DNA of 64,000 bases from a candidate division WOR-3 bacterium UBA6260 (GTDB lineage Bacteria; Hydrothermota; 32-111): positions 35,377 through 99,376 of the forward strand of contig DJVI01000028.1 of assembly GCA_002441125.1 (NCBI GenBank), in the 5' to 3' direction. Position numbers and translations under genes: made by a program. Positions within the stretch are counted from its first letter, which is position 1, and each line of letters starts with the position of its first letter. The notes under the pieces were generated by a model. The model saw only the letters and a list, made by a program, of their open reading frames with translations. It was not told the DNA's origin and did no database searches. This document shows positions 13,677 to 48,730 of this stretch, piece after piece.

Positions 13677-13685
13677 ATTTATAAG

Positions 13686-13771
13686 TGCCGGAGGCCGGAC
13701 TCGAACCGGCACGGGATTGAAGTCCCAGCGGATTTTAAGTCCGCTATGTCTACCAATTCCATCACTCCGGC
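13686..13771 (-). tRNA. tRNA-Leu (anticodon TAA), with a long variable arm
   Basis: Reverse complement: GCCGGAG-TG-ATGGAATTGGTAGACAT-A-GCGGA-CTTAAAA-TCCGC-TGGGACTTCAATCCCGTG-CCGGTTCGAGTCCGG-CCTCCGGC-A. A 7-bp acceptor stem, an anticodon loop with TAA, and a long extra arm. Confidence 0.85.
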
Positions 13772-13774
13772 ATA

Positions 13775-13846
13775 AGGCGGCATCCGGATTTGAACCGGAG
13801 AATAACGGTTTTGCAGACCGTCGCCTTACCGCTTGGCTATACCGCC
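13775..13846 (-). tRNA. tRNA-Cys (anticodon GCA)
   Basis: Reverse complement: GGCGGTATAGCCAAGCGGTAAGGCGACGGTCTGCAAAACCGTTATTCTCCGGTTCAAATCCGGATGCCGCCT. Anticodon loop CTGCAAA, discriminator U. Confidence 0.85.
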
Positions 13847-13859
13847 AAGAAAAAAATGG

Positions 13860-13932
13860 AGCGGGAAACGGGACTTGAACCCGCGACACTCACCTTGGCA
13901 AGGTGACGCTCTACCAACTGAGCTATTCCCGC
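13860..13932 (-). tRNA. tRNA-Gly (anticodon GCC)
   Basis: Reverse complement: GCGGGAATAGCTCAGTTGGTAGAGCGTCACCTTGCCAAGGTGAGTGTCGCGGGTTCAAGTCCCGTTTCCCGCT. Anticodon loop TTGCCAA. Confidence 0.88.
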
Positions 13933-17530: not shown

Positions 17531-17605
17531 TGGCGCCCGAAGGGAATCGAACCCCCAACCTCTTGATCCGTAGTCAAGTGCTCTATCCAATTGAGCTACG
17601 GGCGC
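17531..17605 (-). tRNA. tRNA-Arg (anticodon ACG), with CCA encoded
   Basis: Reverse complement: GCGCCCGTAGCTCAATTGGATAGAGCACTTGACTACGGATCAAGAGGTTGGGGGTTCGATTCCCTTCGGGCGCCA. Confidence 0.85.
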
Positions 17606-22186: not shown

Positions 22187-22195
22187 TCTTTCTAT

Positions 22196-22279
22196 GCCGA
22201 AGTGGTGGAATTGGTAGACACGTCGGTCTCAAAAACCGATGATGGCAACATCATGCCGGTTCGACTCCGGCCTTCGGCA
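22196..22279 (+). tRNA. tRNA-Leu (anticodon CAA), with a long variable arm
   Basis: GCCGAAG-TG-GTGGAATTGGTAGACAC-G-TCGGT-CTCAAAA-ACCGA-TGATGGCAACATCATG-CCGGTTCGACTCCGG-CCTTCGGC-A. Confidence 0.88.
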
Positions 22280-22280
22280 T

Positions 22281-37702: not shown

Positions 37703-38162
37703 TTTTTTCTCCTTTATTCAAAAGTGAATTTAATTCATCTATAAACTCGTTCATATCTTTGAACTGCCTGTAAACGGATGCGAACCTTACATAGGAAATC
37801 TCATCAACCTCTTTTAAATGTTCCATAACAATCTCTCCGATAACCTTTGACTCAACCTCATCAGATTCTTTTGCAAAAAGTTTTCTTTCAACATCTTCAA
37901 CTATTCTGTTTATTATTTCATTCGAGACAGGCCTTTTCCTACAAGCTGTTCTTATACCTTCAATAAGTTTATCCCTCGCATAAGGTTCCCTTCTACCATC
38001 CCTTTTTATAACAAGGAGAGGTGTTTTTTCAACATACTCATATGTTGTGAACCTTTTTTTACATTGAAGGCACTCTCTTCTTCTTCTAACACTTTGCCCA
38101 TCTTTACTTGCCCTCGAATCTATAACTCTATTTTCTTCAAAACCACAGTATGGACATTTCAT
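37644..38162 (-). CDS. nrdR: Transcriptional repressor NrdR (with a Lys-rich C-terminal extension)
   Basis: MKCPYCGFEENRVIDSRASKDGQSVRRRRECLQCKKRFTTYEYVE: zinc ribbon plus ATP-cone. The 3' end overlaps purC by 59 nt. Confidence 0.9.
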   Translation of the reverse strand: MKCPYCGFEENRVIDSRASKDGQSVRRRRECLQCKKRFTTYEYVEKTPLLVIKRDGRREPYARDKLIEGIRTACRKRPVSNEIINRIVEDVERKLFAKESDEVESKVIGEIVMEHLKEVDEISYVRFASVYRQFKDMNEFIDELNSLLNKGEKNGSKGNKHKRIKDDFKGKS

Positions 38163-38644
38163 ATCTTTTTCATCTTTTTTGATGCGTCAAGGATTATCGT
38201 GTTTGAACAACTAACCAAATTCCCATTTTCATCTTTCCCATAATATGTCTCATAAATCCTTGCTAAAGGGTAATTACCTGTTGTGAAAAGTGCATTTTCT
38301 TCTTTTATGTAACTACCACCTTCAACATTTAAAGTTCCAAACCAATTTCTGACTTCACTTTCATCATAGTAATAGGTTTCTATTATGTTACCATTAACTA
38401 TAATCTGTCCATAACAACAACATCCATTTGGTCCATAGTTTCCGAGAGCCACAGAAATGTTATTCTTTTCTCTTATAATTACATCAGAGTAAAAGGACCA
38501 ACCATTGTTGGCATCATAATAAGCATCTGTAACAGGATTTGGATTAAAGGTAAGTTCAAGTTCAGCAATTTTAGGCACAGGAAGTAAGACACAGGATGAA
38601 AAAAATAAAACAAATAATACCAATAAAAACAGGGATTTTTTCAT
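38159..38644 (-). CDS. Lipoprotein of unknown function
   Basis: Signal peptide with lipobox (LVLFVLFFSSC). 161 aa. Contains GPNGCCCYGQ. AAAGGAG RBS. Confidence 0.5.
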   Translation of the reverse strand: MKKSLFLLVLFVLFFSSCVLLPVPKIAELELTFNPNPVTDAYYDANNGWSFYSDVIIREKNNISVALGNYGPNGCCCYGQIIVNGNIIETYYYDESEVRNWFGTLNVEGGSYIKEENALFTTGNYPLARIYETYYGKDENGNLVSCSNTIILDASKKMKKI

Positions 38645-38655
38645 AACTCTCCTTT

Positions 38656-38682
38656 TATAAAAAGGGGGAAAATCCCCCTTTA
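38656..38682 (-). terminator. Rho-independent terminator after the aldehyde dehydrogenase gene
   Basis: On the minus strand: TAA-AGGGGG-ATTTT-CCCCCTT-TTTAT. A 7-bp GC-rich stem (38662-38668 / 38674-38680) followed by a T-run. It overlaps the stop codon. Confidence 0.5.
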
Positions 38683-40176
38683 CTTTTCTATACTCACATC
38701 TATCTGTGCTTTCTGCAATTTACCTGAATAATCGATGTAAACAGTTTTCTGTTCTGTGAATATTTCATAAACTGTCCATCCACCCTCTCTATGTCCATTT
38801 CCTGTATTCTTTGTTCCTCCGAATGGCAGATGACATTCGGCACCTATAGTTGGGCCATTAACATAAGTTATTCCTGTATCTATATCTTCAACTGCTTTAA
38901 AAGCTAAATTCACATTTTTAGTATAAATTGAACTTGAGAGTCCATACTCAACATCGTTTAAAACATCTATCGCTTCTTCAAAACTTTTTACCTTAATGAC
39001 AGATAGGACTGGGCCAAATATCTCTTCCTGCTCTATTCTCATTTTAGGTTTAACATCAACAAAAATAGTTGGTTTTACGAACCATCCATTTTTGCAAACA
39101 CCTTCTTCATACCTGTAACCACCTGTTACAAGTTTTGCTCCCTCTTCCTTTCCAATCTTTACATATTCCAAAATCTTTTTCATAGAAGCTTCATTGATTA
39201 CCGGACCAACATCAACACTCTCATCCCATGGATAGCCCAATTTCAAATCTTCAGTTCTTTTTACAAGTTTTTCGATGAAAAGGTCATGTATCTTTTCATG
39301 TAGGATCAACCTTGATGTAGCTGTACATCTCTGTCCCGCTGTTCCAAAAGCACCGAAAAGAACACCATCAACAGCGAGATCAATATCAGCATCATCCATA
39401 ACTATTTGAGCATTCTTTCCACCAAGCTCAAGAGAAACTCTTTTCAATGTCTTTCCACAAACTGATGCTATATGTCTTCCAATCTCAGATGAACCTGTAA
39501 AGGATACTACACCAATATCTTTGTGCTCAAGTATTGCGTTACCAACAGCACTACCTGGACCGTGAACAAGGTTCACAACTCCCTTTGGAAATCCTGCCTC
39601 TTCCATTATCTCAACAAGTTTGGTTGCAAGAGCAGGTGTATCAGATGCTGGTTTCAAAACAACAGTGTTCCCAGAAAGTAATGCGGGAAACATTTTCCAT
39701 GTTGGTATCGCTATAGGGAAATTCCATGGAGTTATAAGACCTGCAACACCGATAGGTCTTAAAAATGTTATAGCAACTTTGTTTGGTAATTCTGATGGGG
39801 ATGTTCTTCCAAAAAATCTTCTACCTTCACCGAAAGCGTAATAGGCTGTATCTATACCTTCCTGTGTATCACCTCTCGCTTCCTTCATAATCTTTCCCAT
39901 CTCTTCGGTCATAAGTTTTGCTATCTCTTCTTTCCTTCTCACCATTATATCACCAACTTTACCGAGCAGTTCACCCCTTTTGGCTGCTGGGACCTTTCTC
40001 CAACTTTTAAACGCTTCCTTAGCAGCTTTAACTGCAAGGTCAACATCCTCTTTATTTGATTTTGGGAAAACACCTACTATTTTACTCCAATCGGCTGGCA
40101 TTCTGCTTTCAAAAGTTTCTTTTGTAACAGAATCAACCCATTCACCGTTAATGTAATTCTTAAATTTTTGAGTCAT
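38680..40176 (-). CDS. NAD(P)-dependent aldehyde dehydrogenase
   Basis: YINGEWV...ITPWNFP..., the ELGGK-type motif LELGGKNAQIV, and catalytic Cys in GQRCTATSR. 498 aa. Confidence 0.85.
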   Translation of the reverse strand: MTQKFKNYINGEWVDSVTKETFESRMPADWSKIVGVFPKSNKEDVDLAVKAAKEAFKSWRKVPAAKRGELLGKVGDIMVRRKEEIAKLMTEEMGKIMKEARGDTQEGIDTAYYAFGEGRRFFGRTSPSELPNKVAITFLRPIGVAGLITPWNFPIAIPTWKMFPALLSGNTVVLKPASDTPALATKLVEIMEEAGFPKGVVNLVHGPGSAVGNAILEHKDIGVVSFTGSSEIGRHIASVCGKTLKRVSLELGGKNAQIVMDDADIDLAVDGVLFGAFGTAGQRCTATSRLILHEKIHDLFIEKLVKRTEDLKLGYPWDESVDVGPVINEASMKKILEYVKIGKEEGAKLVTGGYRYEEGVCKNGWFVKPTIFVDVKPKMRIEQEEIFGPVLSVIKVKSFEEAIDVLNDVEYGLSSSIYTKNVNLAFKAVEDIDTGITYVNGPTIGAECHLPFGGTKNTGNGHREGGWTVYEIFTEQKTVYIDYSGKLQKAQIDVSIEK

Positions 40177-40188
40177 AAAACCTCCAAT

Positions 40189-41103
40189 CTATTTTAATAT
40201 TTTTTCAAGTTCTAAATCTGAAGGGTATCTCTCTTCAAAAAGTGTAACTACTTCAGATTCATAATTTATTATCCTTCCAAAATCATCCACAAAAAGGGTC
40301 AATTTATCAAAACTTGAAAGTTCTCCATATCCTTTCATAATAATTGTATGATTTAAAGGTGTTTCGATAGCATTTCTTAAACCAATCCCATCGAATCCAC
40401 CAAGCATAATATCTATTCCTTCAACATTTTCCGCAATTATCCTATCATGTTCAAGACCAACGGATGTAAGACCTATTATAATTGAACATCTGTTTTTTTT
40501 CAATATATCAACAACCTCTTTAGTTTTCTCAATCTCTTTTTCAATAATGTAATATTTAGCTACCTCTTCATCCATATTCAATGTAGCATACTCTGAAACT
40601 AACCCAAAAATTCCAATTCTGATACCTTCCTTTTCCATTATAACATATTTTTGTGGTTGTATCTGGGAATCAACTATCTTCAGGTTAGATGATATCAGTT
40701 TTGGATTAAACAAATTAAAGGCTTCATTTAAAAATTTAGGACCAGCGATTATTTCATCAACACCTATATTTACAACATCGTAACCCATATAATTAAAGTA
40801 TAGGGAAGGTTTAGTAAAATCTGTTGAATCTAAATCTACAGATTTGTAAACAAAATTCCCAGAATCAAAGAGGAGAAATATCTGATTCTTTTTGTTAGCT
40901 AGCTCCCTTTCATATTTTACAGCTGTTGAAAGTGAATATATCCCACCAAGAACAGGTGGAAACTCAGGGTTTATAAATGTAGCTTCCCTTCTTTCAAGTA
41001 CATTCCTTATATCGTTCGTGTGTAATATAACTATCTCTTTTGAAAAAAGGGAAATAACAGTAAGAAAAAATGATAAGAAGAAAAAATTTTTTTTCATTTT
41101 CAC
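40189..41103 (-). CDS. Secreted 5'-nucleotidase-like (calcineurin-fold) protein with degenerate metal/catalytic motifs, probably non-catalytic
   Basis: Signal peptide. ILHTNDIRN replaces ILHTNDHHG. FDSGNF replaces LDAGD. GVDEII replaces GNHEFD. GGFDG replaces GGHSH. There is no C-terminal nucleotide-binding domain (304 aa). Confidence 0.55.
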   Translation of the reverse strand: MKMKKNFFFLSFFLTVISLFSKEIVILHTNDIRNVLERREATFINPEFPPVLGGIYSLSTAVKYERELANKKNQIFLLFDSGNFVYKSVDLDSTDFTKPSLYFNYMGYDVVNIGVDEIIAGPKFLNEAFNLFNPKLISSNLKIVDSQIQPQKYVIMEKEGIRIGIFGLVSEYATLNMDEEVAKYYIIEKEIEKTKEVVDILKKNRCSIIIGLTSVGLEHDRIIAENVEGIDIMLGGFDGIGLRNAIETPLNHTIIMKGYGELSSFDKLTLFVDDFGRIINYESEVVTLFEERYPSDLELEKILK

Positions 41104-41106
41104 CTC

Positions 41107-41676
41107 TTAGAAAACTGTTATTCTGTCAACAGATTTTTCAAGAATCTTTGTGAAATAACTTTCATAGATTTTACCTAAAGTATCCGATTTAATCAGAACT
41201 GAAGCTTCATTGTTTTTATCAAGAGCATGGTAACTCCAGTTCGTTGAACCAACTATTACAAAGATAGAATCAATTATCATCGTTTTTGCATGAAGGGTTG
41301 CTTCAGGATCATCATAGAAAACCTTAACTCCTCCACTTTTCAAAAAATCTCCAAGATCTTTATTCCTCGTGCTCTGATTTGGATTGAAACCTGACTGATC
41401 TAGAACTATTTTAACATCAACTCCCCTTTTTACAGCATCGAAAAGGGATTCATAAATTTTCTGGTTCACTCCATCCTTTCTTTCAGGATAGTAACCACCT
41501 TCAAGCATCATTATGTGAATAGTTTTAGATGAATTTTTTATAAGTTTTATAAGATTTTTTGAATACTCTCTGTTATTCATTGTAATAGCACCATCAGCCT
41601 GAAGAAAATTTAAACTGTCTGAAAAAATAAGTTTGAAAGTTAACAAAAATATAATTAGAAAAAATTGTTTTTTCAT
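41107..41676 (-). CDS. Secreted PLD-family protein with a single HKD motif (Nuc-like nuclease or phospholipase fold)
   Basis: Signal peptide. LHAKTMIIDSIFVIVGSTNWS matches HxKx4Dx6GSxN. 189 aa. Confidence 0.75.
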   Translation of the reverse strand: MKKQFFLIIFLLTFKLIFSDSLNFLQADGAITMNNREYSKNLIKLIKNSSKTIHIMMLEGGYYPERKDGVNQKIYESLFDAVKRGVDVKIVLDQSGFNPNQSTRNKDLGDFLKSGGVKVFYDDPEATLHAKTMIIDSIFVIVGSTNWSYHALDKNNEASVLIKSDTLGKIYESYFTKILEKSVDRITVF

Positions 41677-41684
41677 ACCAACTC

Positions 41685-42260
41685 CTAAGGTGTAATTGTT
41701 AAAGTATCTGATCTGAACTCATAAATCTTTTCAAAAAAATCCTCATACTTTAAAGATATATCTTTTGATTTCAAAGCTACCGCACATTCATCATTTTTTG
41801 CAAGAGCATAGAAACTCCAGTTTGTTGAACCAACAACCGTTATAGAAGAATCTATAACTATAAATTTCGCATGGGTTGTTATGTCTGGCATATCAAAGTA
41901 AACCTCAACACCAAATTTTCTCATATATTGTGCATACTCGTTATTTTTTACCGAAAGGGATGGATTCCATGATGACTGGTCAACAATTAAAACAACCTTC
42001 ACACCTCTTTTTACAGCATCAATCAAAGAGTTCTGAAGTTCAGTAGGTTCCCCTTCTGGATAATCCGGATAATAGCCAACCTGATAGATAACAGCATGAA
42101 TAGTTTTTTGTGCATTGTTAAAAAGTTTTATCAGAGTTGGAGTGTAATCCCTGTTGTTCATAGGGATTACTCCATCAACTGGAAGTAAATTTATCTTTTC
42201 TTGGGAGATTAAAAACAGAAAGAATATAAAAACGAATAAAGTTAAAAATATCTTTTTCAT
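41685..42260 (-). CDS. Secreted PLD-family single-HKD protein (paralogue of 41107-41676)
   Basis: Start at MKKIFLTLFVFIFFLF (AGGAG RBS 5 nt upstream). THAKFIVIDSSITVVGSTNWS. Same length and layout as its neighbour. Confidence 0.75.
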   Translation of the reverse strand: MKKIFLTLFVFIFFLFLISQEKINLLPVDGVIPMNNRDYTPTLIKLFNNAQKTIHAVIYQVGYYPDYPEGEPTELQNSLIDAVKRGVKVVLIVDQSSWNPSLSVKNNEYAQYMRKFGVEVYFDMPDITTHAKFIVIDSSITVVGSTNWSFYALAKNDECAVALKSKDISLKYEDFFEKIYEFRSDTLTITP

Positions 42261-42267
42261 AATACTC

Positions 42268-43428
42268 CTAAAATTTAACTGAAACATCACCAACAAATTT
42301 TAAAACTCTGTCAGTATAGTAAACATCTTCCTTCTCATAGTTAACATTCTTATAGTTTAAGGCAAGTGTAAAATCTGTCATACCGATTTTGTAAGTTAAA
42401 CCTGTTGTAAAACCTATATCAACCAATCTGTTGTCCTTCCTGTAAGGTTCATACATAAAACCATACATCATATCTATATTTTTATTCAGTTGATGTAAAA
42501 CTCCTATGTTGTATTTTATAAGATCATTGTAATCTATAAATTGACCGTTTAATTCACTCCACCTTTCATAAGTTATTGAAGAATAGAATACGGCAGGTGC
42601 AACATTTTTAGCCCTGTATTCCAAACCAAATGAGAATATGTCTGGAATTATGTAATAAACGGTTTCAGTCAAAAGGTTGGTGTCAGAAGCTATAACATCG
42701 GTGACCCTGTTAACTGTAATGTATGTTCTGATATTGTAAACGAAAGAAAGTTTAAGATCATCTTTATAATTATATGAAAGGCCAAAATTACCTCTTATCC
42801 CAGAATAATTCTCTTTCGCTGAAGAAGTTGAGTCTGTGTATGAAGGATCAACGAAAAGTTTTGAGTAATCATCTGAACCATCACCCTGCATAATCGAAAA
42901 GTTTGTTCCAAGGGTAAAACCCAAAATCTTGTAATTCAAGCTCAAAAAATATGTGTTCACATTCCCAATCCTAATCTGACTCTCATCGTATAAAAGAACA
43001 TAGTTATCGTTTCTATATATCTGTCTGTATGTATAATCGTTGTTTATATAATTTTCATAACCTATGTATAAACCAAAATCAGATATTGGCATATAACCTA
43101 AAATGTATGCAGGTTCACCATAAAGGAAACTGTTATCGTAAACATTCTTTTTGGCAACACTGTTTTCATAGGAATCAAAAATATATTTTGATCTCGTTTC
43201 TCTGGTCTGGAGTCCATAGAATCCGAGTGAAACAAAATAGTTTTGGGTTTTACATTCAACGGTTGGGTTTAAAAGTGGGTTGAAAAAGAAATCGTTGTTA
43301 CCTAATGCAGCACCCTTACTGAAAAGTGATGTGTTAAAATCACCAAGTCCAGTTCTATAAAGTGAAGTGTAAGGGAAAAGAGTTAAAGAGAAAAGAAAGA
43401 TTAAAATAATATAAAAAAACTTTTTCAT
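42268..43428 (-). CDS. Predicted beta-barrel outer-membrane protein
   Basis: Signal peptide MKKFFYIILIFLFSLTLF. Alternating aromatic/hydrophilic pattern. C-terminal ...VSVKF (terminal Phe). Confidence 0.5.
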   Translation of the reverse strand: MKKFFYIILIFLFSLTLFPYTSLYRTGLGDFNTSLFSKGAALGNNDFFFNPLLNPTVECKTQNYFVSLGFYGLQTRETRSKYIFDSYENSVAKKNVYDNSFLYGEPAYILGYMPISDFGLYIGYENYINNDYTYRQIYRNDNYVLLYDESQIRIGNVNTYFLSLNYKILGFTLGTNFSIMQGDGSDDYSKLFVDPSYTDSTSSAKENYSGIRGNFGLSYNYKDDLKLSFVYNIRTYITVNRVTDVIASDTNLLTETVYYIIPDIFSFGLEYRAKNVAPAVFYSSITYERWSELNGQFIDYNDLIKYNIGVLHQLNKNIDMMYGFMYEPYRKDNRLVDIGFTTGLTYKIGMTDFTLALNYKNVNYEKEDVYYTDRVLKFVGDVSVKF

Positions 43429-43436
43429 TTTTCCTC

Positions 43437-45857
43437 CTACCATCTGATATCTATCTGACAAGATAAACCAATAAGGTTTTTGTATTCATCAAAATCTGAT
43501 ATAACCTGAAAATCTGAATCTATGTAACGGTATTTGTTATTATAAACAGATATACCTGAAAATGTAGTTTCCTGATTTTTTAAGGATAGTTTCATCCTCA
43601 TAGAAAGAAGATCAGATATCCTATCAACAAAACTCAAGTACATCTTATCACCTTTTCCATAAAGGAAATCTATCCCATTATCCTCAAGTATCCATTGACT
43701 CATACCGTTAGTATTCCATGTCGCAAAACCACCAAGAACGGAAAAGAAATCGGTTATCCTCTTTTCATAGGAGAGGTTTACAAAAGAACCATCTATGAAA
43801 TTATTATCCGTGTTTCCTCCTGTTGTTAATTTAACCATTCCATACCTTGCTTCAAAATTAAGATAATCGTTGTTGGAAAGAACGGTGAATATCCTCAAAG
43901 TTGTTTCGTTAGTTACAGAGTTTGTTGAAACAATATTTTTATAAATGTTCTTTTCCTGTATTTTGTATTTTAACCTTATCCTAACAGGGAAAACAGGTCT
44001 TAACTCTATTTCGCTCTGGAATCTATAGTTAAGAAGGTTATAATCGAGAGTTCTCCAAATATCAAGGTATGTGTAGTTTAGTGTTAAATTTGATAAAATC
44101 CTATACCTTGTTTCAAGATATATACCCTCCTCAGGTCTTGGCCTTGGGTCATCGAGAATGTATGTGAAAAGCGGATCTATAAGTCTATAGGTTTTTTCAA
44201 ACTCCGTATCATCATATCTTGACTGCTCATAGAAAGGTCTCGAATAAAAATTTGTGTAACCAACATCGTACCTTCTTAAAAGACCTACAAAATAAAAATC
44301 ACTGTAAACCAATCCGCTTTTTATAACATAAGCTTTACTTTTATCCTGTAAAGCGAACTCCCCTTGTAAAAATAGATTTTTGTAAGCAGTTTGGAAATTA
44401 AATCCGTAAACATTCAACCTATCATTTTTAAATTCGTTAAGGTAAACAGGTATTTTCAGGTTGTCTTTATCGAAAGGTATATCCAAATTTAAACTATCCT
44501 GTTTGAAATCTTTGTCAAATAAAGAGTTGAAACCTGAAAATCCGATTTGTGTCACAAGTGGAAGGTTAAGGATCCCACCTATATTTAAAGCTACTTTCCC
44601 ACCTAAAGTTTTTTCACCATAAACATCTGTAAACTGATCTATATAAGTTTTTGTTAAAAGTGGTAGATTTACGGTTGAATCCCTGTTTAAAATTCCATCC
44701 CTTTTCATCTGAGACAAAAATAAAAGGTAGTATAATCTTTTAACATTTCCTTCCAAAGCTATACCGAAAAGGTTGTTTGCAAAAGATTCATTTAAATCAA
44801 CGAAAAGCCCGGAACTCCTGTCATATGTTCTTGAGCTCTTCTCATCAGTATTATCGAATATTAAACCTTCATTCAGAGTTACCCTATAATTCCCAAATAT
44901 CAAATTTTTTATAAAAGGTATATCTCTTACCTGAAAATATCCTTTAATATTTCTTTCTCCGATTGTTGAATAATCTGAAAACAATGTCCCAAAAGAAAGA
45001 TTGTTCCCAACATTCAGGATTATTTTGTTGTAAAGGTTTGAACCTATCTTTCTTTTCTGTAACTGCGAGTACTCACTTTCAATTCTACTTTTCAAAGAAT
45101 CAACTTCCTCTGAAGTGTAACCTGCCTTTAAAAGAGTATTCCTCAAATTTACCGAATCAGGATTTACTACCTCAAGTTGACTCAACCTGTATGATAGTTC
45201 ATTAGCGAGAGCAGAAAATGATGAGTATCCATAAGTATCATCGTTGGAATATTTCATCTTCGTTCTTATATAACCTGAGAGGTCAAAAAAACTTCTCTTT
45301 TCATCTTTGAAGGAAATATAGTTTTTCAAATTGGAATAGGCATAATAGGTCAGATTAGGTGTTCTTCTAAGATCTGTAAGGTATCTGTATGTTCTTGATT
45401 TTTTCCCCTGCATTATAGCTTCAACATCAGTTAACCTTACTCCATATATCTGTAAAAGTTCTTCAAAGCCAACCCTGTTAACATTGAGTTTCTCAACAAG
45501 CAGCCTTTCCCATAGATCTATAGCACCTCTTGAAGGGTTTTCCTCTCCAGCCAACCTGTCTTGAATTCTTAGGATGTAAATTGAGGTTGAATCTATAGTA
45601 GTGTCAGGTTTTATCATAATCTTTTCTTTCAATATTGAAAAGATCTCATAATCAACACCTTCTATATTCATAAGTTCATATATAGATTTAATCTCTCCAT
45701 GATTTTTTATATAAACTTTGATGTTGTTTATAACTTCATCAGGGATAAAGAGAGTATCAAGTGCAGATGGGTCTTGATTGTTTATATCTATCTTATCCTG
45801 AGAGAAAGTTATAGAAAAGATGACAAGGATTAAAAGAAAAATATATATCCTTTTCAT
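43437..45857 (-). CDS. Large outer-membrane protein with N-terminal ComEA-like helix-hairpin-helix modules and a C-terminal beta-barrel-like region
   Basis: Signal peptide. INNQDPSALDTLFIPDEVINNIKVYIKNHGEIKSIYELMNIEGVDYEIFSILKEKI follows the ComEA HhH pattern (IN..s...L..LPGIG...A..I..YR..nG.F.S.EEL..V.GIG.K.fe.lk). A second weaker copy reads VGFEELLQIYGVRLTDVEAI. The ~650-aa remainder is Y/N/S-rich and ends ...IDIRW. Confidence 0.5.
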   Translation of the reverse strand: MKRIYIFLLILVIFSITFSQDKIDINNQDPSALDTLFIPDEVINNIKVYIKNHGEIKSIYELMNIEGVDYEIFSILKEKIMIKPDTTIDSTSIYILRIQDRLAGEENPSRGAIDLWERLLVEKLNVNRVGFEELLQIYGVRLTDVEAIMQGKKSRTYRYLTDLRRTPNLTYYAYSNLKNYISFKDEKRSFFDLSGYIRTKMKYSNDDTYGYSSFSALANELSYRLSQLEVVNPDSVNLRNTLLKAGYTSEEVDSLKSRIESEYSQLQKRKIGSNLYNKIILNVGNNLSFGTLFSDYSTIGERNIKGYFQVRDIPFIKNLIFGNYRVTLNEGLIFDNTDEKSSRTYDRSSGLFVDLNESFANNLFGIALEGNVKRLYYLLFLSQMKRDGILNRDSTVNLPLLTKTYIDQFTDVYGEKTLGGKVALNIGGILNLPLVTQIGFSGFNSLFDKDFKQDSLNLDIPFDKDNLKIPVYLNEFKNDRLNVYGFNFQTAYKNLFLQGEFALQDKSKAYVIKSGLVYSDFYFVGLLRRYDVGYTNFYSRPFYEQSRYDDTEFEKTYRLIDPLFTYILDDPRPRPEEGIYLETRYRILSNLTLNYTYLDIWRTLDYNLLNYRFQSEIELRPVFPVRIRLKYKIQEKNIYKNIVSTNSVTNETTLRIFTVLSNNDYLNFEARYGMVKLTTGGNTDNNFIDGSFVNLSYEKRITDFFSVLGGFATWNTNGMSQWILEDNGIDFLYGKGDKMYLSFVDRISDLLSMRMKLSLKNQETTFSGISVYNNKYRYIDSDFQVISDFDEYKNLIGLSCQIDIRW

Positions 45858-45866
45858 AAAAAACTC

Positions 45867-46745
45867 CTAAAAGGAATAGGACAGCTGGATATGGTTTCTT
45901 GAAGGAAGGTTAACAACTGTTGTGTAACCATAATCTATAGATAGATTTTTTATTTTCATTTCAAATCCTATTCCAAGATTTGTTGGATAACTTCTTACTC
46001 CGGAATATATTGTGAACAGATTCTTTATTAACTGGTATTTCAATGAAAAACCGAAAGAAGTAGGTTCACCACTGACTTTTGAAATATCAAAATTTGTGGT
46101 CAAACTCTCATAAGGTAAGTAAGTCAAACCAGCAGAGACCTTTCTTGTTATATAGTATCTTTGGTTACTCATAGCACCAACAATATATGTGTCTGTGAAA
46201 TTCGAAACCGCAAGCCCAATAAACCATCTATCATAAACTTTACCTATCATTCCTAAATCAGCTGTATAGAATATATTGTTGTTAGCATCAACACCTTCCA
46301 TCTTCTGTTCGATAAAAAGAAAGTTCAAATTTGTTCCAAAAAATATTAGATCGTTGAATCCAAGACCGTATGTTAACTGGACAACTCTTTCTGTCTGCAA
46401 TCTCGTGTTAGTACTTAATAAAGAGTCACCGTTTGAATAATCACCGATTACGAAAAGTTCAGAATACTTTAAACCAATGTTACCATAATCTGAAAAGTAT
46501 CCTCCCGATAGAGAAGCAGCATGTATGAACCTGTAAAGATTCTCATAAGAAACTGATACCTGATATTTATCAAGCCCCATTATAGACGCTGGATTTACTG
46601 TGATATTATCTATTCCAGAGATCATACCGGTTGTTGCGTAGGCCATACTTTTTGTCTGAACATTACCGGGTATATATTCGAAAGCAGCATAAGAATAGAT
46701 AAAAGTCAAAAAAGAAATTATGAAAATTAAAATAATCTTCTTCAT
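45867..46745 (-). CDS. Beta-barrel outer-membrane protein, PorP/SprF-like (tentative)
   Basis: Signal peptide. N-terminal GIDNITVNPASIMGLDKYQVSVSYEN resembles the PorP/SprF NPAxxG...YRxQW start. C-terminal ...LSYSF. Sits immediately downstream of a T9SS-CTD cargo gene. Confidence 0.4.
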   Translation of the reverse strand: MKKIILIFIISFLTFIYSYAAFEYIPGNVQTKSMAYATTGMISGIDNITVNPASIMGLDKYQVSVSYENLYRFIHAASLSGGYFSDYGNIGLKYSELFVIGDYSNGDSLLSTNTRLQTERVVQLTYGLGFNDLIFFGTNLNFLFIEQKMEGVDANNNIFYTADLGMIGKVYDRWFIGLAVSNFTDTYIVGAMSNQRYYITRKVSAGLTYLPYESLTTNFDISKVSGEPTSFGFSLKYQLIKNLFTIYSGVRSYPTNLGIGFEMKIKNLSIDYGYTTVVNLPSRNHIQLSYSF

Positions 46746-46756
46746 CTTTTACCTCA

Positions 46757-48730
46757 TCATTTTAATTTTGTTGATATAACAACAGGTTTTGTTATAGAAT
46801 AACTGTAACCTTTACTATCTATCTTGGTTACATTTAAAATATAGATGCCCAAATTACATAATGCACCATTTTTATCCTTACCATCCCAAAGGTATATACC
46901 TGAACCAGGTTGGTTTTCACCTATAGTTTTTATATGTTTTCCATTTATATCGTAAATCTTCAATGTGAACCTTTCATCATTCAAACCTTTCACCTCTATC
47001 CTTAAAACCTGTCCATAATCTGGTGAAAATGGATTCGGGAAAAGTGAAACGGAAGATGTTGAATCTTCAGGTAAACTCAAAATATTTATATCAGATTTTT
47101 TCCTAACCTGTAATTGATAGCCTGATGTATATGGTGATTGACTGTCATATTGGCCACCTATTCCAATAACATCAACTATCTTACCGGGAACTATAGAACC
47201 CATTATTTCATCTTCATAAAGACCTGTTGATTTGTTTATTCTAACATCTATAACAGAGTATCCATTCTGAATCTGGAAATTTTTACCTGTTCCCGCATCG
47301 ACAGGATATGTTAAAATCTTACCATAAACTACTTTCAAAAGTTTTCCTTCAACAAGCTCCGATATACCCTGAGAGTTTTTAAGTTCTTCTGGTTGTACAT
47401 AAGCGAAAGTATCATTTAAAATGTAAACATCGGTATCGGGTGATGAGTACTTTATCTCAGTTAAACCGTTATACTCTGTAACAACTCCCCTGACCATCAC
47501 CTCAACACCTTCTTTGAATTTTTGATTCGCAGGATCTGATGATGAGTATATATCAACACCACCAGTTTTATCCTGAATGAAAAATCCTGTCGATGTTGCG
47601 GTCGGAGAAAAAATACTCGATGATCCTATAACAACTCCTTTAACTGAAACAACCTGATTAACATACTTTGAATTGTAACCATCATTTGTAGATTGAACTT
47701 CAGAGATATCCATAAGGTTTGAAAAAGGTGTTTTCTTCATTATGAAAAATGGTGAAACAGGTAAAAGTTGTGTTTGGCTAACACCGGTATAAAGTTTCAC
47801 AGTATCACTGTTTGTGAAGTAATAATTTTTAACATAAATTTTTATAGAGTCCTTGAAAATAATATTGTTTATATTAACTGTTGTTGTAGTTGATGTTGTA
47901 TCTATTGTTATCTTAGAAGAGTCAAACAAGATAAAGGATGAGTCACAAAGAACCTTTATTGAATCTTTTAACAACTTTTTGTTAAAAACGAGTTTTAAAT
48001 ACTTAATGGTTCCATATATAGTGTCAACATTTGGAATAAGATCAACCCTTATATCGTTATAGGATGAATCGTTGAAAAATTTAGGATTAACATTTACCAA
48101 ACCACTACCATCAATAGTTTTTAAAACATCATCGTTACCATAAGGTTTTAACTCATATTTCCCGTTGTATTCATCCATACAACCTCTTATGAAAATAAAA
48201 GTATCGTTGAGAGCTTCAACAGTTACAGGGTAAGAATTATCTTCATAGATTATCATAGGCCCAGACCCATCATCGACTTGCCATTCCCTTGCTGATGTTA
48301 TCTGTGTAACAGCGCAATTTTCAACCTGTATAAACATACCTTCATACTTTTCTTTCCCAGCATCACCTGTTTTCACAATAACTGGACCTGGGACTTTTAC
48401 ACCCTTTGCAAGAACTGTTAGAGTTGTTGGGTTTGATATTTCAGTTTTTCCATTATATTCTACAACCTGACCAGTAACAATTATAGAATCACCAACTTCA
48501 ACAGGTGTTGGAGGATTGTAAACTAATATTCCGTGCCAAGGTAAAGTATCATCCTGAATGTAAACATTAACACCGAAAACTCTTGTAACTATTCCAGAGA
48601 TTGTAACGGTTTGTCCAGCATAAGGTGATGCTCCTGAAATATTTTCAGTGTATTGAACATCATAAATTGTAAGCCCAAATGAAACTATAAAAAGAGAAAC
48701 TACTGAAAAGAATAAGAATAGATATTTCAT
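46757..48730 (-). CDS. Secreted multi-domain protein with two OB-fold-like repeats and a T9SS type-A C-terminal sorting domain
   Basis: Signal peptide. Repeat 1: IYDVQYTENISGASPYAGQTVTISGIVTRVFGVNVYIQDD...GILVYN...VGDSIIVTGQVVEYNGKTEI. Repeat 2: ISEVQSTNDGYNSKYVNQVVSVKGVVIG...GFFIQDKTGGVDIYSS...GVEVMVRGVVTEYNGLTEI. The C-terminus SLFPNPFSPDYGQVLRIEVKGLNDERFTLKIYDINGKHIKTIGENQPGSGIYLWDGKDKNGALCNLGIYILNVTKID...KPVVISTKLK fits the Por_Secre_tail / TIGR04183 pattern. Confidence 0.6.
   Translation of the reverse strand: MKYLFLFFSVVSLFIVSFGLTIYDVQYTENISGASPYAGQTVTISGIVTRVFGVNVYIQDDTLPWHGILVYNPPTPVEVGDSIIVTGQVVEYNGKTEISNPTTLTVLAKGVKVPGPVIVKTGDAGKEKYEGMFIQVENCAVTQITSAREWQVDDGSGPMIIYEDNSYPVTVEALNDTFIFIRGCMDEYNGKYELKPYGNDDVLKTIDGSGLVNVNPKFFNDSSYNDIRVDLIPNVDTIYGTIKYLKLVFNKKLLKDSIKVLCDSSFILFDSSKITIDTTSTTTTVNINNIIFKDSIKIYVKNYYFTNSDTVKLYTGVSQTQLLPVSPFFIMKKTPFSNLMDISEVQSTNDGYNSKYVNQVVSVKGVVIGSSSIFSPTATSTGFFIQDKTGGVDIYSSSDPANQKFKEGVEVMVRGVVTEYNGLTEIKYSSPDTDVYILNDTFAYVQPEELKNSQGISELVEGKLLKVVYGKILTYPVDAGTGKNFQIQNGYSVIDVRINKSTGLYEDEIMGSIVPGKIVDVIGIGGQYDSQSPYTSGYQLQVRKKSDINILSLPEDSTSSVSLFPNPFSPDYGQVLRIEVKGLNDERFTLKIYDINGKHIKTIGENQPGSGIYLWDGKDKNGALCNLGIYILNVTKIDSKGYSYSITKPVVISTKLK

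What the first reader, a model, noticed from the sequence alone, without database searches (positions are those of the whole stretch)
40189..48730. Secreted and outer-membrane gene cluster that looks like an extracellular DNA capture, degradation or uptake locus
Seven consecutive minus-strand genes all encode signal-peptide proteins. In transcription order they are:
- A 657-aa T9SS-CTD cargo with two OB-fold-like repeats, which I recall from the N-termini of ExeM/NucH-type extracellular nucleases.
- A PorP/SprF-like barrel.
- An 806-aa barrel protein carrying ComEA-like HhH DNA-binding modules.
- A 397-aa barrel.
- Two tandem Nuc-like single-HKD PLD-family proteins.
- A 5'-nucleotidase-fold protein with dead catalytic motifs.

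Each element on its own is ambiguous. Together they point to binding and cleavage of extracellular nucleic acid and handling of the products at the outer membrane. I do not know of a described system with this composition, in particular the HhH-barrel fusion. The cluster starts directly downstream of rpoN.
Basis: inference. Interest (0 to 1): 0.75.

Follow-up and report, generated by a model that had tools for sequence, protein, structure and literature searches.

The report
Outer-membrane nucleic-acid capture and breakdown module
Seven adjacent secreted and outer-membrane genes in an uncultured WOR-3/TA06 bacterium are a lineage variant of an undescribed gene module, conserved across several candidate phyla, that probably captures environmental DNA or RNA, passes it through a large outer-membrane barrel fused to ComEA-like domains, and degrades it in the periplasm; no biochemistry exists yet.

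Summary

Comparative genomics defines a real module:
- In about 65 diverged loci from WOR-3, TA06, Fermentibacteria, Aegiribacteria, Cloacimonadota, Edwardsbacteria, Latescibacterota, Krumholzibacteria and Eisenbacteria, the housekeeping flanks (rpoN, lptB, aldh, nrdR) are lost.
- The order cargo (OB/DUF5689/LTD, with T9SS sorting domain) – PorV-like barrel – HhH-barrel – FadL-like barrel – 5'-nucleotidase persists.
- The universal core is g2 plus g3.

g3 is predicted with confidence (pLDDT 88) as two ComEA/EEPD1-like (HhH)2 modules followed by a roughly 24-strand barrel. The barrel has no Pfam model and no close solved relative, and its inferred lumen is basic in all 48 members.

The window lineage carries a derived variant: two Nuc-type single-HKD PLD proteins plus a truncated 5'-nucleotidase that has lost all five catalytic motifs yet remains under purifying selection.

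Best reading: a pilus- and TonB-independent system for acquiring extracellular nucleic acid, functionally analogous to Bacteroides ddbABCDEF but built from different parts. Function is inferred, not shown.

The parts
46757..48730 (-). g1: 657-aa secreted surface protein with two ExeM/NucH-type OB-fold repeats, a C-terminal T9SS type-A sorting domain and no catalytic domain
   Evidence: ExeM_NucH_DNase N-terminal region 6.4e-16 (12/12 orthologs). The ortholog profile hits the N-terminus of the EEP-domain proteins 9sf8/9sf9 (1.8e-8). No EEP domain in any ortholog. DUF5689 is weak here (16.9 bits) but above cutoff in orthologs L018, L024 and L076.
48296..48673 (-). g1 OB repeat 1 (about residues 20-145)
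   Evidence: NCBIfam ExeM_NucH stretch at residues 66-143; the family profile matches 9sf8/9sf9 over profile positions 24-145.
47411..47719 (-). g1 OB repeat 2 (about residues 338-440), with weak DUF5689 similarity
   Evidence: Pfam tRNA_anti-codon at residues 362-426 and DUF5689 at 338-439.
46760..47044 (-). g1 C-terminal sorting domain (residues 563-657)
   Evidence: FlgD_ig 28.1 bits (cutoff 27) and Por_Secre_tail weak. In orthologs TIGR04183 matches 7/12, with further hits to the PorU and PorZ models; the family profile also hits the PorU structure 6za2 near its C-terminus.
45867..46745 (-). g2: 292-aa PorV/PorQ-family FadL-like outer-membrane barrel, the presumed carrier or anchor for the g1 CTD and partner of g3
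   Evidence: PorV_fam 3.5e-7 here (below cutoff); 17/18 orthologs match, best 1e-25. The profile hits PorV 6h3i_F at 4.5e-5. Always directly upstream of g3.
43437..45857 (-). g3: 806-aa fusion of two ComEA-like (HhH)2 modules to a roughly 24-strand outer-membrane barrel
45618..45800 (-). g3 (HhH)2 module 1 (residues 20-80)
   Evidence: HHH_3 at residues 20-79. Family profile versus ComEA 8dss/8dfk 5e-11. The first hairpin lacks the PGIG motif; the second keeps G-I/V-D.
45318..45545 (-). g3 (HhH)2 module 2 (about residues 105-180)
   Evidence: Helices 110-177 in the model. The conserved 'NINxA...' repeat in the family consensus and very weak Tex hits (E 0.4) at profile positions 121-181. EEPD1 itself carries two tandem HhH units, both of which align to module 1 of the profile.
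43440..45281 (-). g3 beta-barrel (residues 193-806): 24 long strands, short periplasmic turns, hypervariable helical loop L1 (205-272), highly conserved aromatic-rich loop L7 (531-575), C-terminal W
   Evidence: DSSP of the model. Phase analysis gives lumen K+R 33 against D+E 15; family median net charge +12; conserved basic ladder R612, R620, R626, K630, K632, K636.
42268..43428 (-). g4: 386-aa FadL/TodX/BamG-like 14-strand barrel (likely start 43428, not 43461)
   Evidence: Family profile versus PDB: BamG 9hjm_F 2.5e-11, TbuX/TodX 4e-7 to 9e-6. Follows g3 in most loci.
41685..42260 (-). g5: single-HKD PLD-family protein of Nuc/NucT type, with signal peptide (likely start 42260)
   Evidence: PLDc_2 1.5e-23; NucT and DrmC 5e-14; Zucchini/MitoPLD and Nuc in the PDB. 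HAKFIVID...GSTN motif intact.
41107..41676 (-). g6: paralogous single-HKD PLD-family protein, 44% identical to g5, a possible heterodimer partner
   Evidence: PLDc_2 3.1e-24; HAKTMIID...GSTN intact; g5 versus g6 BLASTP 8e-60.
40189..41103 (-). g7: 304-aa truncated, catalytically dead 5'-nucleotidase N-domain (pseudoenzyme)
   Evidence: PDB CD73 1.2e-11. Motifs are NDIRN, GN, GVDE, TS and GGF, against NDxHG, GD, GNHD, H and GGHxH in full-length orthologs. dN/dS 0.12-0.16.

Best explanation
This is a cell-envelope module for acquiring extracellular nucleic acid, most likely for nutrition (phosphate or nucleosides).

Proposed mechanism:
1. g1 is exported with a T9SS type-A sorting domain and held at the surface by the PorV-like barrel g2. 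Its ExeM-type OB folds bind DNA or RNA.
2. g2 also docks on g3, as PorV docks on SprA. This places the OB protein over a wide barrel of about 24 strands whose lumen is lined with conserved Lys/Arg.
3. Nucleic acid (polymer or oligomer) passes through g3. The two N-terminal ComEA-like (HhH)2 modules, which by OMP topology lie in the periplasm, hold or ratchet it inward without a pilus or TonB.
4. In the periplasm it is cleaved by the Nuc-type PLD enzymes g5 and g6, which may act as a heterodimer.
5. In most other lineages a full-length 5'-nucleotidase takes the place of these enzymes and releases phosphate and nucleosides, and a UgpB-like ABC importer is often adjacent.
6. In the window lineage that 5'-nucleotidase has become a truncated, inactive but conserved protein (g7), presumably a binding or scaffolding subunit.
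7. g4, a FadL/BamG-like barrel, is an accessory partner of g3 or a channel for small products.

Shown here: gene content, domain homologies, the predicted g3 fold, conservation of the module across phyla, the dead motifs and purifying selection. Inferred: every binding, transport and catalytic step, the topology and the complexes.
For: Module reality: in diverged loci (g3 31-40% identical) the rpoN, lptB, aldh and nrdR flanks disappear, while g1-g2-g3-g4-(PLD)-5'NT stays in the same order and strand. It also holds in Krumholzibacteria and Eisenbacteria.

Nucleic-acid signal from independent parts:
- g1 carries the ExeM/NucH OB region, which is required for ExeM nuclease activity (PMC6085458). 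Its orthologs score above cutoff for DUF5689, the family of DdbD and of the Riemerella transformation protein. Some orthologs carry LTD.
- The g3 HhH modules are homologous to ComEA and EEPD1.
- g5 and g6 are Nuc/NucT/Zucchini-like single-HKD proteins.
- Orthologous positions hold intact Metallophos + 5_nucleotid_C enzymes.
- Neighbours include an Exo_endo_phos gene, PhoU and a PstS-like gene in L084, and UgpB/UgpA-like ABC genes on either side of the module in different lineages.

Channel:
- Confident AF2 model of a barrel of about 24 strands, in the size class of ushers and MtrB.
- The inferred lumen is net basic in all 48 members, with a conserved K/R ladder.

Localisation logic: the PLD proteins and g7 have plain signal peptides and no sorting domain, so they are probably periplasmic, which requires their substrate to enter the periplasm.

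All seven genes are under purifying selection.
Against: - There are no experimental data for any member, and all hosts are uncultured MAG lineages.
- The first HhH hairpin has lost the canonical P-G-I-G DNA-contacting motif, and HhH folds can have non-DNA roles (for example PsbU, a weak hit).
- The commonest form of the module encodes no nuclease, only a 5'-nucleotidase, which fits uptake of nucleotides or organophosphates as well as uptake of polymers.
- LTD and OB domains are not strictly DNA-specific.
- The UgpB-like binding protein belongs to a family better known for glycerol-3-phosphate and sugars, and scores below the equivalog cutoff.
- The periplasmic position of the HhH modules, the g2-g3 complex and the lumen charge are inferred from secondary structure and analogy. 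No coordinates or multimer model were available.
- T9SS core genes were not checked in these genomes.
- No promoter or Pho-type regulatory site was identified.
Confidence: 0.58

Rival explanations
1. Scavenging of nucleotides or organophosphates, not polymer uptake. Nucleic acid is degraded outside the cell by unlinked enzymes, or free nucleotides are the substrate. g3 and g4 then act only as anion-selective channels for mono- or oligonucleotides. The periplasmic 5'-nucleotidase releases phosphate, and the Ugp-like ABC system imports an organophosphate product. On this reading the HhH and OB domains bind short nucleotides or serve structural roles.
For: - The majority form of the module has a full 5'-nucleotidase and no nuclease.
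- UgpB/UgpA-like genes are adjacent in 19 loci.
- PhoU and a PstS-like gene lie near the module in L084.
- The basic lumen resembles phosphate or anion channels.
Against: - A barrel of about 24 strands is far larger than needed for mononucleotides.
- Two (HhH)2 modules and large multi-OB/DUF5689/LTD surface proteins are polymer-binding designs.
- The window-type variant puts nucleases without secretion tags in the operon.
Confidence: 0.2
2. A DNA-uptake machine for natural transformation. g1, g2 and g3 replace the type IV pilus, secretin and ComEA, and deliver DNA to ComEC. The PLD nuclease plays a NucT/EndA-like processing role.
For: - The HhH modules are ComEA homologs.
- DUF5689 proteins and an adjacent OM barrel are essential for transformation in Riemerella (PMC8459023).
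- NucT-like PLD similarity.
- RecJ lies directly downstream of the module in four WOR-3 loci.
- A NamZ/DUF1343 cluster neighbours g1-g3 in three loci, and a DUF1343 gene was a hit in the Riemerella screen.
Against: - No comEC, dprA or comF gene recurs beside the module in about 80 loci.
- The constant partner is a catabolic 5'-nucleotidase or a nuclease, plus an ABC importer. That fits degradation rather than preservation of incoming DNA.
Confidence: 0.1
3. A T9SS-related cargo export or anchoring module with no nucleic-acid role. g3 would be a dedicated translocon or attachment platform for CTD cargo, g2 and g4 carrier barrels, and the HhH domains protein-interaction modules. The hydrolases would be unrelated passengers, for example in lipid or UDP-sugar metabolism.
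For: - g2 is PorV/PorQ-like and g1 has a type-A CTD.
- A PorV-plus-large-barrel pairing mirrors PorV-SprA.
- Other CTD cargo plus PorP/SprF pairs sit next to the module in some loci.
- The g3 barrel has no relative of known function.
Against: - It does not explain why OB/DUF5689/LTD, ComEA-type HhH, 5'-nucleotidase, Nuc-type PLD and EEP functions converge on one module across phyla.
- One subgroup keeps g2-g3-g4-5'NT with no g1-type cargo upstream.
Confidence: 0.1

Closest known systems
Bacteroides thetaiotaomicron ddbABCDEF DNA-utilization locus (Sharan et al., PNAS 2025, PMC12478041) and the related Riemerella anatipestifer natural-transformation genes RA0C_RS04920/04915 (PMC8459023)
   Same: - Same logic: one locus combines a surface OB-like DNA-binding protein (DUF5689 family; g1 orthologs score above cutoff), an outer-membrane barrel transporter and signal-peptide nucleases.
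- Both are pilus-independent and found in the FCB superphylum.
   Different: - The transporter is unrelated. DdbC is a TonB-dependent, SusC-like 22-strand barrel with a plug. g3 is a barrel of about 24 strands with no plug or TonB box, fused to HhH modules.
- The surface protein is tethered by a T9SS CTD and a PorV-like barrel, not by a lipid anchor.
- The nucleases belong to the PLD family, not the families in ddb.
- A 5'-nucleotidase, active or dead, is a constant member.
ComEA (periplasmic DNA receptor and ratchet of competent bacteria; PDB 8dss/8dfk; Vibrio cholerae work in PMC3879209)
   Same: Homologous (HhH)2 DNA-binding fold (family profile E 5e-11), and a predicted periplasmic location at the inner mouth of an OM channel.
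   Different: - ComEA is a small free or membrane-anchored protein that works with the PilQ secretin and a type IV pilus.
- Here two modules are covalently fused to the OM barrel itself.
- The first G-h-G hairpin is degenerate.
ExeM/NucH/Xds extracellular nucleases (Shewanella, Aeromonas, Vibrio; PMC6085458)
   Same: g1 shares the N-terminal OB-fold substrate-binding region (twice); some orthologs also carry the LTD.
   Different: No EEP catalytic domain in any of the g1 orthologs examined; a T9SS sorting domain replaces the GlyGly-CTERM or other anchors.
Nuc / NucT / Zucchini single-HKD PLD-family nucleases
   Same: One HKD motif per chain of about 170 aa, a signal peptide, an intact HxK(x)4D...GSxN motif, and dimer-type architecture.
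   Different: - Only about 30-50-bit similarity, well below NCBIfam equivalog cutoffs.
- Present as a tandem paralog pair (44% identical).
- Activity untested.
T9SS PorV-SprA translocon and PorV/PorQ carriers (PMC10994853)
   Same: A PorV-family 14-strand barrel encoded next to type-A CTD cargo and next to a large barrel.
   Different: - g3 (about 24 strands, 806 aa) is not SprA (36 strands, about 2,400 aa).
- The proposed direction of transport is inward.
- No motor link is known.
UshA/CD73 5'-nucleotidases
   Same: g7 is homologous to the N-terminal metallophosphatase domain, and orthologs in other lineages are complete enzymes.
   Different: g7 lacks the C-terminal substrate-binding domain and has substitutions in all five metal-binding and catalytic motifs.

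Membership tests
Ddb-type DNA-utilization locus | TonB-dependent SusC-like transporter (DdbC: plug, CarboxypepD_reg, 22-strand barrel) | tested here: not met
Ddb-type DNA-utilization locus | DUF5689 (DdbD-like) surface DNA-binding partner | tested here: inconclusive
   Window g1 scores 16.9 bits against a 28.6 cutoff. Orthologs L018, L024 and L076 score 51, 48 and 40 bits, above cutoff.
Ddb-type DNA-utilization locus | Secreted or periplasmic nucleases in the locus | tested here: inconclusive
   Two Nuc-type PLD genes are present, but their nuclease activity is not testable here, and most orthologous modules have no nuclease.
ComEA family | (HhH)2 DNA-binding domain | tested here: met
   HHH_3 in 48/48 members; ComEA structures at 5e-11.
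ComEA family | Canonical G-h-G hairpins contacting DNA phosphates | tested here: inconclusive
   Hairpin 1 has a one-residue deletion and no Gly; hairpin 2 keeps G-I/V-D.
ComEA family | Small stand-alone periplasmic or membrane-anchored protein | tested here: not met
   Fused to a 614-residue beta-barrel.
T9SS type-A cargo (g1) | C-terminal type-A sorting domain (TIGR04183 / Por_Secre_tail) | tested here: inconclusive
   In the window, FlgD_ig scores 28.1 against a cutoff of 27, Por_Secre_tail only 14.7 bits, and there is no TIGR04183 hit. Seven of 12 orthologs hit TIGR04183.
T9SS type-A cargo (g1) | T9SS core machinery (SprA/Sov, PorU, PorK-N) in the genome | not tested
   Only the 64-kb window and +/-10-kb loci were available.
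PorV/PorQ family (g2) | Match to the PorV_fam model at curated cutoff | tested here: not met
   The window protein scores 30.1 bits against a cutoff of 90. The family-level signal is clear (17/18 orthologs, best 1e-25; PorV 6h3i_F 4.5e-5). It is a divergent relative rather than a curated member.
   No Pfam hit; 1/18 orthologs match at 8e-4.
Nuc/NucT PLD-family nuclease (g5, g6) | Single HKD motif HxK(x)4D plus GSxN in a secreted chain of about 155-190 aa | tested here: met
   PLDc_2 at 1e-23/3e-24 over the whole domain; motifs read directly from the sequence.
Nuc/NucT PLD-family nuclease (g5, g6) | Equivalog-level similarity to NucT | tested here: not met
   52.6 and 45.3 bits against a cutoff of 211.
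Nuc/NucT PLD-family nuclease (g5, g6) | Metal-independent nuclease activity | not testable with these tools
   Requires enzyme assays.
5'-nucleotidase/UshA (g7) | Five metallophosphatase motifs (DxH, GD, GNHD/E, H, GxH) | tested here: not met
   All five are substituted here and in every PLD-bearing locus; they are intact in most full-length orthologs.
5'-nucleotidase/UshA (g7) | C-terminal 5_nucleotid_C substrate-binding domain | tested here: not met
   g7 has 304 aa and no Pfam hit. Orthologs L024 and L030 have the domain.
ExeM/NucH nuclease (g1) | EEP catalytic domain | tested here: not met
   Only model positions of about 34-116 of 546 match; none of the g1 orthologs scanned has Exo_endo_phos.
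FadL/TodX/BamG family (g4) | Sequence homology to the 14-strand FadL-type barrel | tested here: met
   Family profile: BamG 2.5e-11; TbuX, TodX and CymD 4e-7 to 7e-5. The single sequence has no Pfam hit.
Usher / LptD / MtrB / TBDT large barrels (g3 barrel) | Specific structural or sequence similarity beyond the generic barrel | tested here: not met

The most novel reading that the evidence does not exclude
The g3 family is a previously unrecognised class of outer-membrane nucleic-acid translocon. It would be a barrel of about 24 strands with a basic lumen and covalently tethered periplasmic ComEA-like ratchet domains. A PorV-like barrel would load it by presenting a T9SS-delivered OB-fold DNA receptor. 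Polymeric DNA or RNA would then cross the outer membrane without a type IV pilus, secretin or TonB, across at least eight FCB-group candidate phyla.
Probability: 0.3. Interest if true: 0.88.

Novelty: new variant of a known kind. Interest (0 to 1): 0.72.

Why it matters
- How DNA crosses the outer membrane is understood mainly for the pilus/secretin/ComEA route. A TonB-dependent route was proposed for Bacteroidota only in 2021-2025. This module suggests a third design, in which the ComEA-like ratchet is part of the channel and the surface receptor is delivered by type IX secretion parts.
- It is conserved in abundant, uncultured sediment and bioreactor phyla (WOR-3, TA06, Fermentibacteria, Cloacimonadota, Krumholzibacteria and others). 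Extracellular DNA is a major phosphorus and carbon pool in those habitats, so the module may mark these groups as nucleic-acid scavengers.
- It offers a compact set of proteins that can be tested by heterologous expression.
- It gives a clean example of a 5'-nucleotidase turning into a conserved pseudoenzyme wherever a PLD nuclease is present in the operon.

Tried and rejected
- The first word-indexed homolog search found only 8 close relatives. Their loci were collinear over the whole neighbourhood and so could not define the module.
- The first AF2 run, with 9 sequences, was unusable (pLDDT 52).
- A 48-sequence alignment was too diverse for the search for related loci. A 16-sequence subset worked.
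- The afdb50 fold library was unavailable.
- No sigma-54 promoter consensus occurs in the window. Sigma-70-like matches were at the level expected by chance (68 found against 66.6 expected), and the only convincing terminator-like hairpin lies after aldh. Transcription-unit boundaries are therefore unresolved.
- Rfam and tRNA scans found nothing related to the cluster.
- I considered whether the Riemerella HhH transformation protein RA0C_RS02645 belongs to the g3 family. The paper places its HhH domain at residues 236-301 and predicts a periplasmic protein, which fits an ordinary ComEA rather than an HhH-barrel. I could not fetch its sequence, so I dropped the link.
- I considered rpoN linkage to be functional and rejected it, because the adjacency is lost in all diverged loci.
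- I considered cardiolipin-synthase identity for g5 and g6. It is unlikely: they have one HKD and no TM helices beyond the signal peptide, and g5 scores highest against nuclease-type PLDs. g6's single best NCBIfam hit is nevertheless a cardiolipin-synthase model, at 52.6 bits against a cutoff of 290.
- Literature searches for this gene combination found no description.

Full report
**1. Observation**

The window (about 30% GC) carries seven consecutive minus-strand ORFs at 40189-48730, exactly as described.
- The ORF listing over-extends g4 and g5. The likely starts are the MKK... ATGs at 43428 and 42260.
- With those starts, every gene from g1 to g6 is preceded by an AGGAG/GGAGG-type RBS, and the gaps are 1-12 nt.
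- All seven proteins have a basic n-region and a strongly hydrophobic h-region. The flanking RpoN, aldehyde dehydrogenase and NrdR do not.
- g2, g3 and g4 end in F, W and F, the usual OMP beta-signal.
- The closest public relative of g3 is 93% identical and comes from 'candidate division TA06 bacterium 32_111'. Others are labelled WOR-3.

**2. What each gene is**

- **g1 (657 aa).** It has two OB-fold repeats that match the N-terminal part of the ExeM/NucH extracellular nuclease model (6.4e-16; 12/12 orthologs). It matches the N-terminus of two solved EEP-domain proteins (9sf8/9sf9, 1.8e-8). Its C-terminal domain belongs to the T9SS type-A/FlgD_ig class (TIGR04183 in 7/12 orthologs; hits to the PorU and PorZ models). 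No ortholog examined has the catalytic EEP domain. Longer orthologs score above the Pfam cutoff for DUF5689 and also carry LTD, Big_5 or fn3 domains.
- **g2 (292 aa).** A PorV/PorQ-family FadL-like barrel (17/18 orthologs, best 1e-25; PorV structure 4.5e-5). It is not PorP/SprF.
- **g3 (806 aa).** HHH_3 matches all 48 family members. The family profile hits ComEA structures (5e-11) and the HhH region of EEPD1 (6e-20).
  - With a 48-sequence alignment, AlphaFold2 gives pLDDT 88 and pTM 0.83. The model has two (HhH)2 modules (residues about 20-180) followed by 24 long strands. Turns on one side are 2-9 residues long and loops on the other side are long. The protein ends in W.
  - By the standard OMP topology rule the N-terminal HhH modules are periplasmic. 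This is an inference; no coordinates were available.
  - Assigning lumen-facing residues by hydrophobicity phase gives 33 K/R against 15 D/E. The family median net charge is +12 (range +6 to +20 across 48 members). There is a conserved basic ladder on strands 16-17.
  - Loop L7 (531-575) is the most conserved long loop in the family and is rich in aromatics. Loop L1 (205-272) is hypervariable.
  - Caveat: the first HhH hairpin has lost the P-G-I-G motif.
- **g4 (386 aa).** A FadL/TodX/BamG-like barrel (BamG 2.5e-11; BamG described in PMC12578637).
- **g5 and g6.** Single-HKD PLD proteins with intact HxK(x)4D...GSxN motifs, 44% identical to each other. For g5 the best matches are NucT, DrmC, Zucchini/MitoPLD and Nuc. 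g6 matches NucT and DrmC too, although its single best NCBIfam hit is a cardiolipin-synthase model far below cutoff.
- **g7 (304 aa).** Only the N-terminal domain of a 5'-nucleotidase (CD73, 1.2e-11), with every catalytic motif replaced.

**3. Is it a module?**

Close relatives (49% identity or more) are collinear over 20 kb, which shows nothing about module boundaries. An exhaustive profile search found 83 family representatives at E<1e-30. A genome scan found 136 species-level genomes with a g3 homolog, and 80 loci were fetched.

In the loci where g3 is 31-40% identical:
- rpoN, lptB, aldh, nrdR and purC are gone.
- g1-g2-g3-g4 persist in the same order and strand, usually with a 5'-nucleotidase directly after g4.
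- The same five-gene order is found in Krumholzibacteria (L083) and Eisenbacteria (L084).

Variants exist:
- Fermentibacteria and Aegiribacteria have a short g1 and a UgpB-like binding protein upstream.
- One WOR-3 subgroup has g2-g3-g4-5'NT without g1. It is often followed by RecJ, or by a CehA/McbA (PHP-like) hydrolase that carries a T9SS sorting domain together with a PorP/SprF barrel.
- Another WOR-3 subgroup has only g1-g2-g3.

The universal core is g2 plus g3.

The UgpB/UgpA-like ABC genes lie upstream of the module in some lineages and downstream in others. That argues for linkage rather than inherited order.

**4. The window's version is derived**

- In loci without a PLD gene, the g7 position holds a 500-600-aa enzyme with Metallophos and 5_nucleotid_C domains. 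All five motifs are intact in most of them; the partial exceptions L029 and L036 are listed under items noticed in passing.
- In every locus with a PLD gene, the g7 homolog is about 300 aa and all five motifs are dead.
- The PLD-bearing loci fall into four groups on a rough g3 NJ tree, interspersed with PLD-free groups. The number of independent events is unresolved.
- g7 has dN/dS of 0.12-0.16, so it is a maintained pseudoenzyme. All seven genes lie between 0.03 and 0.16, but dS is saturated.

**5. Mechanism**

Several independent parts point to nucleic acid: ExeM-type OB and DUF5689 domains, ComEA-type HhH modules, Nuc-type PLD proteins, a 5'-nucleotidase, and a nearby EEP gene and Pho-type genes.

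The PLD proteins and g7 have plain signal peptides and no sorting domain, so they are probably periplasmic. Their substrate must therefore enter the periplasm.

I propose the following sequence (inferred throughout):
1. g1 captures nucleic acid at the surface, held by g2.
2. The nucleic acid passes through the wide, basic g3 barrel.
3. The tethered HhH modules retain or ratchet it in the periplasm.
4. g5 and g6 cleave it there. In other lineages the 5'-nucleotidase dephosphorylates the products instead.
5. Small products are imported.

Supporting literature:
- The ExeM OB region is needed for nuclease activity (PMC6085458).
- PorV binds cargo CTDs and docks on the lateral opening of SprA (PMC10994853).
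- ComEA acts as a periplasmic DNA-binding ratchet in Vibrio (abstract of PMC3879209).

Every functional step remains an inference.

**6. Comparison with known systems**

The closest described systems are B. thetaiotaomicron ddbABCDEF and the related Riemerella transformation genes. ddbABCDEF combines nucleases, the TonB-dependent transporter DdbC and the DUF5689 protein DdbD.
- Shared features: the overall logic and the DUF5689/OB element.
- Differences: the transporter, the tethering mechanism, the nuclease family and the 5'-nucleotidase.
- The window cluster therefore works like a DNA-utilization locus but is not a member of the Ddb family, because the TBDT feature was tested and not met.

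Four literature searches found no description of the HhH-barrel family or of this gene combination. [quoted passage not shown]

**7. Verdict**

- Novelty: a new variant of a known kind (nucleic-acid utilization or uptake loci) that contains what may be a new class of OM translocon.
- Interest is high but tempered. All evidence is computational and the hosts are uncultured.

Noticed in passing
window 40189-41103 (g7) and loci L018, L019, L020, L028, L032, L054, L076 versus L024, L026, L030 and others: Every module that contains a PLD gene has a truncated 5'-nucleotidase of about 300 aa with all five catalytic motifs dead. Most modules without a PLD gene have a full-length enzyme with all five motifs intact. 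One speculative explanation is that the PLD products carry a 3'-phosphate, which would make a 5'-nucleotidase useless; this is untested.
   Followed up: yes
L029:7672-9192 and L036:5524-7035: Exceptions to that rule. These 5'-NT homologs are full length and lie in loci without a PLD gene, yet have partly degenerate motifs (L029: NDIQG, GQYDC, TS, GGYSR; L036: GNNDY, GGRSH).
   Followed up: no
window 38680-40176 and 38665-38678: An aldehyde dehydrogenase follows g7 after 12 nt with its own RBS. The only convincing terminator-like hairpin in the region lies just after it. In this clade the transcription unit may therefore run from the lpt/rpoN genes through g1-g7 to aldh. The adjacency is absent in diverged loci.
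   Followed up: partly
window 38159-38644: A 161-aa protein with a lipoprotein-like signal (…LFFSSC) and no family hit. It overlaps nrdR by 4 nt and is conserved only in the close clade.
   Followed up: no
L047:2403-6535, L057:1814-6109, L082:12492-16643: A cluster of NamZ (DUF1343 exo-MurNAc-ase), an NTP-transferase and a beta-lactamase-like gene lies next to g1-g3 in three WOR-3 loci, in different orientations. A DUF1343 gene was also essential for transformation in the Riemerella screen (PMC8459023). This may be coincidence or a link to the cell wall.
   Followed up: partly
L031, L039, L041, L062 (directly after the 5'-NT); also further downstream in L024, L026, L027: A RecJ-like DHH/DHHA1 ssDNA exonuclease (326.7 bits, below the TIGR00644 cutoff of 396.9) lies downstream of the module on the same strand, usually followed by an RlmI-like methyltransferase. 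This may be lineage collinearity.
   Followed up: partly
L026:14751-16487; also L027, L043, L052, L060, L081: A CehA/McbA (PHP-like) metallohydrolase with a T9SS type-A sorting domain follows the 5'-NT. In L052, L060 and L081 it is followed in turn by a PorP/SprF-family barrel. It is a candidate surface phosphoesterase or nuclease of the g1-less variant.
   Followed up: partly
L024:4102-5757, L028:14940-16710 and 17 further loci: A UgpB-like binding protein is adjacent to the module in 19 loci, joined by UgpA-like permease genes in L024, L026, L028 and L032. It lies upstream of the module in TA06 and Fermentibacteria and downstream in L028 and L032.
   Followed up: partly
L084:15868-22667: In the Eisenbacteria locus an Exo_endo_phos protein, PhoU and a PstS/SBP_bac_1-like gene lie just downstream of the module, which hints at a phosphate-limitation context.
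   Followed up: no
L085:618-2588 (P0150) and P0135, P0141: Shorter proteins of 620-670 aa, with an HhH module and a barrel, match the barrel portion of the g3 profile at E about 1e-13 to 1e-15. They occur in a different gene context (DUF6913, GGDEF). This is a second, smaller branch of the HhH-barrel superfamily whose host taxa are unknown.
   Followed up: partly
window 43437-45857, residues 205-272 of g3: A 68-residue helical insert between strands 1 and 2 is hypervariable across the family (mean column identity 0.10, against 0.40 for the barrel as a whole). Loop L7 (531-575) is the most conserved long loop.
   Followed up: partly
window 13685-13932, 17532-17605, 22195-22280: Five tRNA genes (Leu-taa, Cys, Gly, Arg-acg, Leu-caa). 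They are the only Rfam matches in the window.
   Followed up: yes
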